From Octopus vulgaris (lineage: Eukaryota): a stretch of DNA of 64,000 bases. The translations under genes were made by a program, and so were the position numbers. Below the pieces are notes generated by a model. The model searched no databases, was not told the origin of the DNA, and saw nothing but the letters and a program-made list of their open reading frames with translations. Positions 51,586-62,646 of this stretch are shown here, piece after piece. Positions within the stretch are counted from its first letter, which is position 1. Each line of letters begins with the position of its first letter. The stretch covers positions 14,012,001 through 14,076,000 of the forward strand of contig OX597814.1 of NCBI GenBank assembly GCA_951406725.2. The letters are read 5' to 3'.

Positions 51586-51936
51586 ATTGCAGCGTGGAAG
51601 GTAAGCCATTTAAGAAGCACACAAAAGCCGTTCGATTCACTTCAACATTTAAGTTTAATTTGTCAAAATATTTTCGTCGCTAAAATCCGCGACCTGTTCA
51701 CTGACAAAAATCCGTGCTGCATCTCGGATCCGTGCAGCACGGATTCTTGTCAGTGAACAGGTCGCGGATTTTAGCGGCGAAAATATTTTGACAAATTAAA
51801 CTTAAATGTTGATGTGAATCGAACGGCTTTTGTGTGCTTCTTAAATGGCTTAGAAACACCTTCCACGCTGCAATTGTTTTCGTTCCAGCACACGATCTCA
51901 GATCAAATCACTTGCTATGCGAGTACATCTCCGTAA
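51586..51936. mobile_element. Fold-back PLE-derived element (arms 51586-51721 and 51733-51874, plus tail)
   Basis: Inverted arms of ~135 bp with a few mismatches and an 11-nt spacer. Only the right arm has a ~60-bp tail. A single-arm relative is at 59367-59552. Confidence 0.8.
51747..51794 (+). ncRNA. Minimal hammerhead-like fold with G3-C8 core variant (mirror copy 51660-51707, minus strand)
   Basis: TTGTCA-GTGAACA-G-GTCGC ggatttta GCG(G/A)C-GAAAATATTT-TGACAA. Stem I has 6 bp, stem II has 5 bp, and stem III is palindromic. Confidence 0.65.
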
Positions 51937-52329
51937 TAAAAAAAAATATTTTAACTCATTTCTGTTGGTCATATATTCAGTGGATGTTTTTATGCCCACG
52001 ACAGAACAAATTTTCAGTTTAAAGATATTTAATGTAAAAAAGAAATATGACTAAAATAATTTCCTGCAATTTGTCATGAGTTTTATTTTGCAGGAAATTT
52101 CCTCTGCTTTGTTATTAGAAAGATTGATGTATTTGTGCTCAAATGTAATATAGATTATTTGAAATATGTAGTCGTACGAAAAGCCAAAATATAATATTAA
52201 ACATGACACTCATGCGCCTAGTTCAATGTAATTTTAAATTTGCTTTATATCATAGCCTCTATCGTTCAGTTTACTTCATTTTTCTATGACATATATTCAC
52301 ATACATAGATGCATACTTACAAACATAAT

Positions 52330-52810
52330 TATCATGGCAAAAAGTAGTTAGGAAAGAATACCTTGCCAACACTGACAGTAAATTATGCACAATCGAGTTT
52401 GTAAACTACATAATAGGAAAGCACCTGGAAGAGAATTCATAGCTGTATACTGGTACAAGAGACAGGCCCCTCCAAAAAGCCTTTAATGTCTATACTCAAC
52501 AAATTATAGAGAGCCAAAGTAACATCCCAAGTATGAACAGTAGCTGCCTAAAATGTTACGTGACATGAAAATCATCCTAACACAACATACAATATCACAA
52601 GATAAGAAATAACCTGGGGAAAATATTGAGAATCTCCCTGTTAGCACATTAATTAAAAAACTTACCCATCAAAACTTCTAGCACATGCAAGCATACCAGT
52701 CCGGATATAATAATTAAAGACAACAAAAAAAAACAAGCTTGTGTCATCATAGAAATCATGTACATCGGTGGCGAGATACCTCTTCGAAAAGCTACGTAAA
52801 AGTGGATAAC
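52330..52810 (+). pseudogene. Highly decayed RLE LINE fragments
   Basis: KLHNRKAPG..YWYK and SPDIIIKDNKKKQACVIIEI. Confidence 0.5.
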
Positions 52811-53395
52811 ACAGGACGATTGCATATTTTATATTTAGATTGTAAACATACATTTACACCAATGATAATTGACACAAATGTTTTTGTAAATAAATGCTTA
52901 ATCGAAAATCTGGAGCTATTTGACGACAAGACATTAATCAACTGACAGATATACTACAAATACAAGGGAAGAGTAAAAGTACGTGAGATGTGTGTGAATT
53001 TGATTTTCATATCTTTGGAACTTTGTATCGTTATTGGTAACCATATCCTTTCTTACAAATATATTCAAAAAAGGAAAATTAGAATAGGACACACACCTGC
53101 ATACATACGCGCACGCGTATGTATGCAGGTGTGTTTGTGTGTAAACTGACGCAGACAAATGCACACAAACACATACAAACAAAAAAGAATATGTATATGC
53201 ATAATTTCGACAATATTTGAAATGGAATGGACATGTGCCTACGATTGTAGAAAAATTCGAAATTCCATGGATAAAATCTCACGGTATTTTATGAAGGTAT
53301 AAGATTTTCCCATTATCGCATACTTCGATGAGTATATTCTTGCACGTGAAATTCTTTTAGTATAGCTAATATACATATATATATATATATATATA

Positions 53396-53514
53396 TCACC
53401 GTCACCGTTACCGACCAGGCTATCAGATGTTGCTACACATCACTGGTCACAAAGCACTTCGCATTGTTTTCGCCATCAAATGACGCCACACCGCTAGCTA
53501 AGCGAGCAAGCCAA
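53396..53514 (-). mobile_element. Stand-alone tail type 2 module in (TA)n
   Basis: Equals the 3' ~118 bp of the family A SINEs. Confidence 0.85.
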
Positions 53515-59366: not shown

Positions 59367-59552
59367 AGTGACCAAGCAGGTCGCGGTCTCAAAGCGCGGA
59401 AAATCTTTTGACAAATTACGTTCAAATAAAGTGAATCTTACGTTTTTGTGTGTTTTTAAATGGCTTATAAATACCTTCCACGCCGCAATTTGTTTTTGTT
59501 TCAGCACACGATCTGAGATCAGATCATTTGCTATGCAAGTACATCTCCGTAA
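59367..59552 (+). mobile_element. Single-arm relative of the 51586-51936 element
   Basis: CAGGTCGCGG..TTTTGACAAATT..CCTTCCACG..CAGCACACGATCT..GTACATCTCCGTAAT. Confidence 0.8.
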
Positions 59553-60075
59553 TAATATATATGTGATATATGGTATAATAATTTTATGACATTTGTCTAA
59601 GCAAGCATGATTGTACGTTAGGTTAAACACAACCACTCACTTATAAACTACACATAAGCACGTATAGACTCACTCACACGCCTACACATACAAACGCACG
59701 CACACATATGCACTCAAAGATATATACATAAATATGCTTACGTACATTAGTGTTACAGTCCAAACTTCTATGTATAGTTTTCATATTAATTGTGGAATAC
59801 ACAGTAATATTTAGAGATTTGAAAACTTTGTATAAGGTTTAATGGGAATATTTCTTTGATTCTGTCGCAGACTACAGGGAAAATTTGTTAATATTTATGC
59901 CAAGCATTTAATGAAACTGGAATTCTTAAGATTTCTGACATTAATCAGATAATTATTTATTCAATATAACACTTATCATAATTGAAACACGTATCGAATT
60001 TTAAGACTTCCTGAAATTAAGCAATAAATATTTTTGGACAGTTTCACTAAATAGTTATTGATTTTATTAACCCTT

Positions 60076-60230
60076 TTATTATTATTATTATTATTATTAT
60101 TATTATTATTATTATTATTATTATTATTATTATTATTATTGTTTTTGTTGTTGTTGTTGTTCTTCTTCTTCTTCTTCTTCTTCTTCTGTTGCTGTTGTTG
60201 CTTTTGTCGTTGTTTTTGCTGTTGTTATTG
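60076..60230. repeat. (TTA)n-(TTG)n-(TTC)n compound microsatellite
   Basis: Read directly from the sequence. Confidence 0.95.
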
Positions 60231-60659
60231 ATATTTCTGTTGTTATCATTAATGTTATTGATCTTATTATTTTTATATGATCTATTAATTGCTTTTCAGA
60301 TATCAAATTAACTTTTATTCGTAAATATGGAAGGTGCTATTTACGATATATCACGTTTATTTGAAGATGTTTATATATTTGAATGATAGAATGTGAATGC
60401 TAATATTGAATTTTAAATAAGTTTTTCTTTACATTGAAATGCTTCCATAAATAGTGTAAATTCCCCATGAGAATGAGTGTATAAATACACGAATTGACTT
60501 TGGAATATTATTCACATCGGTTTTATACTCTTAACATCGTCATTACAAATAATTATTGCGAAAAATGTACTTATTTAAACATTGGTGTGGGAAATGAAAT
60601 TTTGTAAGCATAAGAAAATTAATTTTTGTTTCTCAAAATATCTACTTCTCTCCAGATTT

Positions 60660-62646
60660 ATGTATATATAAATATATAAGGAAAAATATGACAAGGTAAA
60701 AAATGCTAAAATAATTTTATAATGAACATTTTAGTACTGGTTTCAGTCTTAGCGACTTTTTCAAATTAGAGTAAAGCATGAAAAACAATTAACTTGTGGA
60801 AAAATGAAATGAAATCTGTTAAAAAAAATGTCCATAGATTTCAAATACAAGGGACATTTTCCTTTTGTCTGCCTATTTGTCTCTCTTTTTTTACTCTTGT
60901 GAAGTCTTCGTACAAGGTGGTACGTAGTAGCGGACTTTTGAAGGAGTGTAGTTACTTCTATTTCGGACTAAATATTCTTCCTCTTTGTATTTGTCGTATA
61001 GTTCCTCAACGAGTCGTAATTTTCTACAGAATTCCGCACGTCCGTCTTCTTTCATTTGATTGTAGCTGGGGTGTTTGTGGGCGGGAGATAAACTTGAGCC
61101 CTTTGGAGAGTATGTAGATTTAGTTTGCTGTTAGTTTTTTGTGCGTTAGATTAATAATCTTTATCACTTTTGGGTCCTCCTGTCTGTCTGGTGCTATCTC
61201 GTATATCGGTGTCTGCGTATTGGGTCTAAAAAATAACTGAGATAACTGGGACGGTAGCTATTATGTAGTTGTTCTCTTTTGTTGTGGGGTGCCCTGTTGC
61301 GATTTATGGTGCCGTTTTTTATAAGGGTATTGAAAGGTGTGTCTCTATGTCCCCTGTTCGGATGTGGTGTTTTAGGGGGCCGTCGTTGGTAATTATTACG
61401 CGTAGTACAGGTTTCTTTTGTGTGGTTTTTTAGTCGATTGTTGGAACGAAAACTCCGCTGGTAAACTCCTTATAGGAGGAGAGGTTGTAAAGTCTGTCCT
61501 GCGGGTTCTGATTTTTAATTTCTGTTTGATATTTAGGTACTCACGATGTTGTTTTGCTGGTAGGTTACACAGTTAGGGTTAGATCTTGTATTTTGGGGGG
61601 TAGGGGTGATGGTTCCGTTTTTTAGATAGGTGTGAATCTGTGTATGAGTGTTGTTTTGATTTTCTTGTTTTTAGGAAAGGGTTGTTGGAAGCCTAATGTT
61701 TGAAAGACAGTTTCGTAGTTTGAGCACCAAGTGGGGCTTTTCCCAGCGTTAGAGGGATTTCACGTCTTCTTAATCACAATCTTCTTTCCATAGTTTGGAG
61801 ATCTATAGGTTGGGGGCCTCGAGTCATTTTGTTAATGTCTTGGTTGATCTCTTCATCGATGGATTTTACTTTAGCTTCATTCGTCTGAGCCCTCAATTTT
61901 AGAAGTTCAATTTCTATCTTCATTTTTCCCAGTGCCATTCTTTCCCTGAGGAGTCTCTGCACCTCACGTTCATCTATAATGGTTTTGATCTGGAGTTTGC
62001 GTGCGAGAATTTACGGTGTCAGATTAAACCATTTTTTGTATATATCCGCCTTGTTATTGTTTTGGATCATCTTCCAAAAGGTGCACTTTCCTACCTCTGA
62101 GTGATTCGTTCCAGTGTGGTACTATGTGGTGTTTCTTTTGCTATGTTGTTAGTGTATTGATCCCATATGCTGCCTCGTTCGGAGGTCTTTGGTTAGCGTT
62201 CTTTGAGAAAATATTCTAACTGTTTCGCATAAGTTTCCAAGGTTTTCGACGATTTCGGAGGTTATATTTTTCCTATCGATTGGGTTCATGTGTCGAGTCA
62301 AGTTTGTTAAAGTAACGTTAACAGATTTGTGTTGATTGTCTTGAGTTCTTCCATATTTCTTCATTTATAGTAGTGATTGTGTTTGTTTTTATCGGCATTT
62401 TCTGTATCTCGAGTGGGGATTACTCTGTCTCTCTCTCTCAACAGAAAATAAAGGAAAATGTCCATTGCATTTAAAAAATTGGGAAATATTTTTTTAAATC
62501 ATTTCATTTAATTTTTCCACAATTTAATTGCTTTTGATGTTTACTCTAAGTTGAGAATGTTGCACAGACTGAAACCTGTACTAAAGTGTTCTTCATGATA
62601 ACACTATTTGAGCATTTTCTACCTTGTCATATTTTCCTTATACATA
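60660..62646 (-). mobile_element. ~2 kb element with diverged ~200-bp terminal inverted repeats and a decayed internal ORF (probable PLE derivative)
   Basis: 60662-60870 is an imperfect reverse complement of 62441-62646, and both carry a hammerhead-like motif. Internal minus-strand remnants include KMKIEIELLKLRAQTNEAKVKSIDEEI. Confidence 0.65.

What the first reader, a model, noticed from the sequence alone, without database searches (positions are those of the whole stretch)
51660..62586. Hammerhead ribozyme variants: three different 3-8 core pairs in PLE-type termini
Seen: canonical C3-G8 cores (CUGAAGA at 55141-55147 minus and 58919-58925; CUGAUGA at 12939). Also seen: a G3-C8 core (GUGAACA, 51753-51759 and its mirror) and a U3-A8 core in both arms of another element (UUGAGAA at 62551-62557; UUGAAAA at 60758-60764 minus). 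Each is followed by stem II, GAAA, a short stem III and an NUH triplet. Established: positions 3 and 8 form a Watson-Crick pair in the hammerhead core, N7 is free, and PLE termini carry minimal type I hammerheads. Inference: the compensatory changes suggest selection on ribozyme structure in several non-autonomous families that a CUGANGA search would miss.
Basis: partly seen in the sequence, partly recalled or inferred. Interest (0 to 1): 0.75.

Follow-up and report, generated by a model that had tools for sequence, protein, structure and literature searches.

The report
Flipped-core hammerhead in Penelope retrotransposons
Several Penelope-type jumping genes in this animal genome end in a hammerhead RNA motif, and one family with over 6,000 copies has the motif's key base pair flipped relative to its closest relatives, which likely preserves self-cutting; such motifs and one of the two variant pairs are already published, and cutting is untested.

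Summary
All seven cores are at the stated places and are real type I minimal hammerheads in the terminal repeats (pLTRs) of five Penelope-like element (PLE) families. C3-G8 and U3-A8 cores in PLE ends are published (Cervera and de la Pena 2014). The G3-C8 family (about 6,400 cores) is the only part I found in no paper. It is the 3' end of an autonomous PLE with an intact 1,025-aa frame. Its sister family has the homologous hammerhead with C3-G8, and so does an outgroup. Flanks have diverged to random identity while the core is kept and three pairs changed on both sides, so the swap looks compensatory. Against a vital role: another young sister family (3,879 cores) spread with A9 changed to C, and short copies span the cut site and start at one upstream base, as if copied from uncut RNA. 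Four of the seven window copies are decayed. 'Non-autonomous families' is only partly right. Cleavage is untested. The scan noted this G3-C8 family twice before in the same genome. Verdict: new variant of a known kind.

The parts
51580..51724 (-). Family A short copy, inverted arm. G3-C8 hammerhead 51710-51657, core 51701-51695, GAAA from 51675, predicted cut after 51666. Starts at the family's common 5' base (51724) with a G before it.
   Evidence: (stems I and II are the MFE fold, z -3.5)
51733..51939 (+). Family A short copy, direct arm with the 3' tail. Core GUGAACA 51753-51759, extra G, 5-bp stem II, GAAA 51779-51782, palindrome AAUAUU, UUU triplet, predicted cut after 51788.
   Evidence: z -2.4
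59377..59555 (+). Older, decayed copy of family A, truncated inside the core
   Evidence: (82% identity)
55008..58803 (-). Family C PLE: partial upstream pLTR (58803-58685, lacks the 5' half of the core), RT frame 58498-57098, frames 57150-56638 and 56659-55775 (GIY-YIG type), 3' pLTR ending in (TA)n
   Evidence: domain labels from recalled motifs, Pfam gave no match
55055..55165 (-). Family C hammerhead: C3-G8 core 55147-55141, long stem II, GAAA from 55085, GUA triplet, predicted cut after 55074
   Evidence: (positions 3 and 8 fixed in 36 of 36 rows)
58804..59080 (+). Family D element end, head to head with family C. C3-G8 core 58919-58925, predicted cut after 58969; stem III broken in this copy. 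No coding partner established.
60672..60865 (-). Family B pLTR, sense end. U3-A8 core 60764-60758, predicted cut after 60735; first pair of stem I broken in this copy.
60866..62449 (-). Degraded N-terminal part of a PLE reading frame (GLKF-type motif), internally deleted; in other copies it continues into the RT
62450..62645 (+). Family B pLTR, inverted 5' copy. U3-A8 core 62551-62557, predicted cut after 62580; stems II and III partly broken.
12547..13050 (+). Family E PLE 3' end: endonuclease remnant 12547-12942, C3-G8 core 12939-12945, predicted cut after 12974; decayed copy
   Evidence: 22 of 22 matching copies C3-G8
3808..4253 (.). Cores CUGAUGC at 4093-4099 (+) and 3968-3962 (-): C3-G8 kept, A9 replaced by C.

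Best explanation
These are minimal type I hammerhead motifs in the terminal repeats of five Penelope-like families, and family A carries a G3-C8 core where its sister family and an outgroup carry C3-G8, a swap likely kept by selection for self-cleavage, which is predicted to need two motifs paired as a dimer and probably the element's protein. Shown: the anatomy, the copy numbers, the link of A to an intact RT plus GIY-YIG frame, the tree (A,(F,G)), and the covariation. Inferred: transcription starts 59 nt before the cut site inside the pLTR. A short RNA from a lone pLTR has one motif, whose stem III (2 bp, 2-nt loop) cannot close, so it stays uncut and is copied whole into the thousands of ~150-205-bp insertions. 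A full-length RNA from a pLTR-ORF-pLTR tandem, or from a tandem array, has two motifs that can pair through the AAUAUU palindrome and would cut after UUU, giving unit-length RNA. Cutting is probably slow and not required for every insertion.
For: Family A: 6,424 cores; 93 of the first 100 listed are G3-C8. Intact 1,025-aa frame with GIY-YIG above the Pfam cut-off, followed by the G3-C8 pLTR; a pLTR-ORF-pLTR tandem with two cores (L321). Tree: A is sister to (F,G), support 100 (quick tree, SH-aLRT only). G and metagenome outgroup L317 have C3-G8. A versus G flanks are at random identity (ungapped 20-24%; gapped 0.49 against 0.48 shuffled), yet U4 G5 A6 G12 A13 A14 A15.1 are invariant in 27 rows. 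96% of cells pair and 4 of 11 pairs change on both sides, slid controls 23-44%. Loop II varies among A subfamilies while core and stems stay. 19 of 23 less-targeted A copies span the cut site, 10 of 23 start 54-64 nt upstream; 13 of 18 copies starting exactly at -59 have a G before it (p 9e-4 against 1/3), as a copied cap would leave. Engineered C3G or G8C kills, and the double change partly restores, cleavage of a PLE hammerhead, which needed the PLE protein (PMC11167929).
Against: No cleavage data. The 34 both-side cells stem from about five events on three branches, and the count of covarying pairs does not beat shuffles (88 of 500). Rows were picked with a pattern that fixes part of the core and stem II, which inflates invariance. 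Family F, the youngest sister (copies 98-100% alike in protein), spread to 3,879 cores with A9 changed to C (89 of the first 100; 5 keep A9). Cofolding did not give the active dimer as MFE for A (gain 1.9 kcal/mol). Among A copies position 7 is no more variable than 3 or 8. No pile-up of 5' ends at the cut site. Family B has only 2-3 bp of stem I next to the core and folds no better than shuffles. In vitro insertion by a PLE did not need cleavage.
Confidence: 0.65

Rival explanations
1. The hammerhead fold is kept for something other than cutting (binding of the PLE protein, or control of translation or priming); catalysis is vestigial in this clade.
For: Family F expanded with A9C. Family A has a UUU triplet and a pair that only partly rescues activity when engineered. 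Short copies come from uncut RNA. Minimal PLE hammerheads cleave poorly in vitro (PMC4209133).
Against: The 3-8 pair forms in the active core, so keeping it through a double transversion points to the catalytic fold (established; Perreault 2011). Across about 28 motif clusters with a Watson-Crick pair, mismatched clusters are few and mostly single copies. An older part of F keeps A9 (5 of 100).
Confidence: 0.22
2. The G3 and C8 changes were two neutral hits in a master element whose ribozyme was already dispensable, then amplified by hitchhiking.
For: It is one event on one branch. Given two changes, a complementary outcome has roughly a one-in-three chance (inference). F shows a core lesion can be amplified.
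Against: All other core bases and the stems survived on a branch long enough to randomise the flanks. G3-C8 is stable across A subfamilies 80-99% alike and no change of 8% or more shows at core positions in runs of four coded organisms.
Confidence: 0.08
3. G3 and C8 were fixed by overlapping signals, not by pairing: each completes a CAG that could be a splice acceptor, and the motif lies in the internal promoter region.
For: Both bases sit in CAG trinucleotides after a U-rich tract, and a branch-site-like CUAAC with an AG lies just upstream (sequence). Penelope has an internal promoter and an intron at this place (PMC2377424).
Against: No splice joint in four contig sets (weak, contigs only and repeats skipped). 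No genomic copy shows a shared upstream exon joined at either CAG. It does not explain covariation in stems I and II.
Confidence: 0.05

Closest known systems
[quoted passage not shown]
   Same: Position in pLTRs, extra base after A9, G10.1-C11.1, palindromic short stem III, paired copies on opposite strands, thousands of truncated copies, U3-A8 variant (about 1,300 hits in Schistosoma mansoni).
   Different: None of the 56 motifs in their Fig. S3 has G3-C8 (53 C3-G8, 2 U3-A8, 1 U3-G8) or C9. Their descriptors did not look for G3-C8.
Natural core variants of hammerheads (Perreault et al. 2011, PMC3088659; read: passages and section 8)
   Same: Natural covariation of the 3-8 pair to U3-A8.
   Different: G3-C8 not reported in the text read; no PLE context.
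PAc Poseidon hammerhead of Anolis (PMC11167929; read: passages and section 3 part 2)
   Same: PLE hammerhead upstream of two RT start sites that define the tail; insertions made from uncut RNA. Family A shows two 3' ends, +78-92 and +146 from the cut (21 of 23 copies).
   Different: G3-C8 there is an engineered partial-rescue mutant; here it is the natural state. In family A the motif lies upstream of the likely start codon, not overlapping it.
Non-LTR retrozymes (PMC7229834, passages; bioRxiv 10.64898/2026.07.22.740005, part 1 of 5)
   Same: L149 holds 16 head-to-tail units of 167-177 bp, each with the family A hammerhead.
   Different: One array seen, with a minimal G3-C8 motif; circular RNA not tested; it may be a simple DNA-level amplification.

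Membership tests
Type I hammerhead ribozyme | Core N3 U G A N N8 A9 ... G12 A A A15.1 ... U16.1 H17 with a Watson-Crick 3-8 pair | tested here: met
   Families A-E at family level; family F fails at A9
Type I hammerhead ribozyme | Stems I, II and III around the core, stem I open | tested here: met
   A: stems I and II are the MFE fold, covariation with sisters. B is weak: 2-3 bp stem I. Stem III closes only as a dimer (inference).
Type I hammerhead ribozyme | Match to an Rfam hammerhead model | tested here: not met
   None among 150 listed of 160 matches at E<=10, also none for the canonical-core copies, so the models do not cover minimal PLE motifs
Type I hammerhead ribozyme | Site-specific self-cleavage after H17 | not testable with these tools
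   Needs a bench assay or raw RNA reads
Minimal PLE hammerhead (min-HHR) | Extra base between 9 and 10.1, G10.1-C11.1, palindromic 15.1-16.1 segment | tested here: met
   A meets all three; C, D, E and B depart in one feature each
EN+ Penelope-like element | One frame with RT and C-terminal GIY-YIG endonuclease | tested here: met
   A: 1,025-aa frame, GIY-YIG E 1.8e-5. RT by motifs and by homologues that carry PF00078; Pfam RVT_1 did not match A itself. B, C, E by recalled motifs; D not linked to a frame.
EN+ Penelope-like element | pLTRs in partial tandem or inverted form, optional tail, (TA)n targets | tested here: met
Neptune or Nematis clade | CX2-5CxxC linker before GIY-YIG (PMC8557442, passages) | tested here: met
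   Present in A and F frames; which of the two clades was not resolved, no named reference in the tree
Non-autonomous family | Spreads without its own coding sequence | tested here: inconclusive
   A, B, C have coding parents. Short A copies share a 5' start and could be re-transcribed, not shown.
Non-LTR retrozyme | Tandem repeats of 150-450 bp, each with a type I hammerhead | tested here: met
   Only for the array in L149; not met for the window copies, which are inverted
Non-LTR retrozyme | Expressed as linear and circular RNA | not testable with these tools
   Only contigs were available

The most novel reading that the evidence does not exclude
Family A is a natural, active G3-C8 hammerhead amplified to over 6,000 copies, and with its sisters G (canonical) and F (A9C) forms a natural series in one genome, from intact to flipped to crippled ribozyme, that shows whether PLE hammerheads matter for transposition; its 16-unit array is a newly born retrozyme invisible to CUGANGA searches.
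Probability: 0.45. Interest if true: 0.55.

Novelty: new variant of a known kind. Interest (0 to 1): 0.4.

Why it matters
The role of PLE hammerheads is open: they are conserved, yet cut poorly and were dispensable for insertion in vitro. A natural double transversion at the 3-8 pair, with the direction fixed by a sister and an outgroup, is comparative evidence that the catalytic fold is under selection. The A9C sister suggests that this selection can lapse. The three families give ready-made constructs to test this. It also means censuses built on CUGANGA miss thousands of motifs per genome. The general picture (PLE hammerheads with variant cores, including U3-A8) has been known since 2014, so the gain is incremental.

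Tried and rejected
Rfam scan: no hammerhead match listed. Descriptor without the extra base: 0 of 7 sites. Compensation among copies of family A: 17 of 6,424 double changes, 7 complementary (6 A3-U8, both transitions; 1 U3-A8), none C3-G8; about 6 doubles expected from rough single rates; read as decay of dead copies. Copy-level conservation of core against the rest of the element: small differences (0.955/0.932, 1.0/0.94, 0.992/0.95), not used as evidence. RNA: no RNA holder listed; both layings had contigs only, so no ends, strand or splicing could be judged; a depth rise past the cut site appears in DNA-type runs too and was dropped. 5' ends at the cut site: 2 of 23, both at deletion or inversion joints. 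The family D row had a wrong cut offset and was dropped. Cofolding did not return the active dimer for A. A DNA-transposon (MITE) reading of the 51580-51880 palindrome was rejected: arm lengths and junctions vary and long copies lead into an RT frame. No PDB relative of the A protein; no significant alignment between A and C proteins. L316 ended before any pLTR. Literature: searches found only engineered G3-C8. Lunse et al. 2017, Martick and Scott 2006 and Przybilski and Hammann 2007 were not held, nor two ids I recalled for 2011-2012 surveys; file 1 of the 2014 supplement could not be searched. A natural G3-C8 may be reported there.
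Full report
Setting. The window lies in a 2.8-Gb animal genome. A protein 98.9% identical to one of its PLE frames is labelled Octopus vulgaris by a source. I name the motif families A (G3-C8, 51753), B (U3-A8, 62551 and 60764), C (55147), D (58919), E (12939), and two found on the way, F and G.

Observation. The seven cores read as stated. 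Rfam lists no hammerhead among 150 shown of 160 matches, and a descriptor without an extra base near stem II found none of the seven. With that base allowed and positions 3 and 8 free, a strict descriptor on 664 kb (60 untargeted stretches plus the window) gave 11 hits, 10 Watson-Crick at 3-8 (4 C-G, 4 G-C, 2 U-A), against about 1 per shuffled pass. A relaxed scan of 1.33 Mb, mostly targeted loci, gave 229 hits: 18 clusters with C3-G8, 8 with U3-A8 and 2 with G3-C8, both family A (a few single-copy clusters are probably chance).

Families. Each query gave 40 scored candidates out of 1,700-3,500. Positions 3 and 8 are C and G in 36 of 36 rows of C, in 26 and 25 of 26 rows of D and in 22 of 22 matching copies of E. 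B is U3-A8 in 68 of 71 pattern matches. A has 6,424 cores, with G3-C8 in 93 of the first 100 listed.

What the elements are. C is a PLE in the window, with an RT frame, two further frames and a partial upstream repeat. B is an internally deleted PLE between inverted pLTRs; other copies run on into the RT and two have the U3-A8 motif about 1.2 kb upstream of the GLKF motif. A looked like a short palindromic repeat, but longer copies lead through a repeat-rich 3' UTR into an RT and GIY-YIG frame. L267 has 1,025 codons without a stop followed by the G3-C8 pLTR, with GIY-YIG above the Pfam cut-off and the CX2-5CxxC linker of the Neptune and Nematis clades (PMC8557442, passages). L321 is a pLTR-ORF-pLTR tandem with an inverted copy. 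So these are mostly ends of coding PLEs. The labels for RT motifs and for the B, C and E domains are recalled; Pfam did not match them.

Is G3-C8 compensatory? Not among copies of A: 17 of 6,424 have both positions changed, none to C3-G8. Between families it is. Family G has the homologous motif with C3-G8, the same N7, the same extra G and a related stem II, and ends a PLE of the same clade. A quick tree of 21 rows gives (A,(F,G)) with support 100; the careful search did not finish. An outgroup from a metagenome contig, L317, has a C3-G8 motif after its frame, so G3-C8 arose on the A branch. The flanks of A and G are at random identity, while in a 27-row alignment (27 chosen of 68 distinct rows) the core is invariant apart from A9. 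96.3% of cells pair, 4 of 11 pairs change on both sides (two in stem I, 3-8, one in stem II) and slid controls pair at 23-44%. Limits: these are about five events, the number of covarying pairs does not beat shuffles (88 of 500), and the rows were picked by a pattern that fixes part of the motif. Sister pairs of B, C and D also show paired changes by eye. No difference of 8% or more shows at the A core in four contig sets from four coded organisms.

Results against a vital role. Family F, with copies 98-100% alike in protein and intact frames up to 1,312 aa, has 3,879 cores; 89 of the first 100 have C at position 9 and 5 keep A. That A9 changes lower activity is recalled, not checked. F also forms the palindrome at 3808-4253. 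Short A copies keep the whole motif: 19 of 23 less-targeted copies span the cut site, 10 start 54-64 nt upstream, and 21 end at one of two places (three of these rows repeat a targeted locus and three are window copies). Over all rows, 18 start exactly at -59 and 13 of them have a G before it, where 23 of 25 long copies have a pyrimidine. I read this as a copied cap at a start site inside the pLTR (inference; Penelope has an internal promoter, PMC2377424, passages). The templates were then uncut, as in the Anolis element (PMC11167929).

Mechanism. Shown: anatomy, context, covariation. Inferred: a lone motif cannot close stem III and stays silent; two motifs in one RNA pair through the palindrome and cut, probably helped by the PLE protein; cut units might circularise, as Cervera and de la Pena proposed. 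The two window copies of A are head to head, so a read-through RNA would form one long hairpin and would not cut (inference). Cofolding gave only 1.9 kcal/mol for an A dimer and not the active form. Confidence 0.65; rivals are a non-catalytic fold (0.22), neutral hitchhiking (0.08) and overlapping splice or promoter signals (0.05).

Comparison with what is known. Cervera and de la Pena 2014 describe minimal PLE hammerheads, the extra base, palindromic stem III, opposite-strand pairs and U3-A8; none of their 56 aligned motifs has G3-C8. Perreault et al. 2011 report natural U3-A8. G3-C8 appears only as an engineered mutant. Nine searches found no natural case, but Lunse et al. 2017 and other key papers were not held, so absence from print is not established. 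Also seen as passages only: PMC6765202, PMC7229834, PMC10085705, PMC2920678, PMC6962438, PMC6155905, PMC3884650; part 1 of 5 of the 2026 retrozyme preprint. The scan itself noted this G3-C8 family twice in this genome; those notes are not independent support.

Verdict. Real, correctly spotted, mostly known. The new part is a natural G3-C8 core with a fixed direction of change, an A9C sister and a 16-unit array. New variant of a known kind; interest 0.4.

Noticed in passing
window 3808-4253; L272-L295: Perfect 446-bp palindrome of family F pLTRs. F is a young PLE with intact frames up to 1,312 aa whose hammerhead has A9 changed to C in about 9 of 10 copies (3,879 cores).
   Followed up: yes
L149:2420-5100 (G000:C28): 16 head-to-tail units of 167-177 bp, each with the G3-C8 hammerhead and a (TA)n spacer, next to zinc-finger coding sequence; retrozyme-like.
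   Followed up: partly
window 51724-51725; family A copies: Sharp 5' start 59 nt before the cut site, often with an extra G, suggesting capped RNA from a start site inside the pLTR.
   Followed up: partly
L040:2819(-), L168:1252(+): Well-formed hammerheads with U3 and G8 (wobble or single change from C3-G8); family status not checked.
   Followed up: no
L240:5350(-), L241:2321(+), L160:2620(-), L052:1209(-), L070:2342(-): Further U3-A8 hammerheads unrelated in sequence to family B, so U3-A8 probably arose more than once in this genome.
   Followed up: no
window 58803/58804: The young family C element abuts an older family D copy head to head; chimeric insertion or insertion into D.
   Followed up: no
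window 62540-62551; L303, L308: Family B motifs begin right after a pyrimidine tract and AG, so splicing there would replace the 5' strand of the weak stem I, as described for D. virilis Penelope.
   Followed up: no
window 37051-41604 (+): Two tandem copies of a non-LTR retrotransposon (RVT_1 and zf-RVT, 666-aa frame), with inverted related sequence near 21759-22801.
   Followed up: partly
window 4496-4994, 18260-18520, 53369-53606, 59083-59321: A ~150-bp repeat family flanked by (TA)n, five or more copies in the window; not examined for ribozyme motifs beyond the descriptor scans.
   Followed up: no
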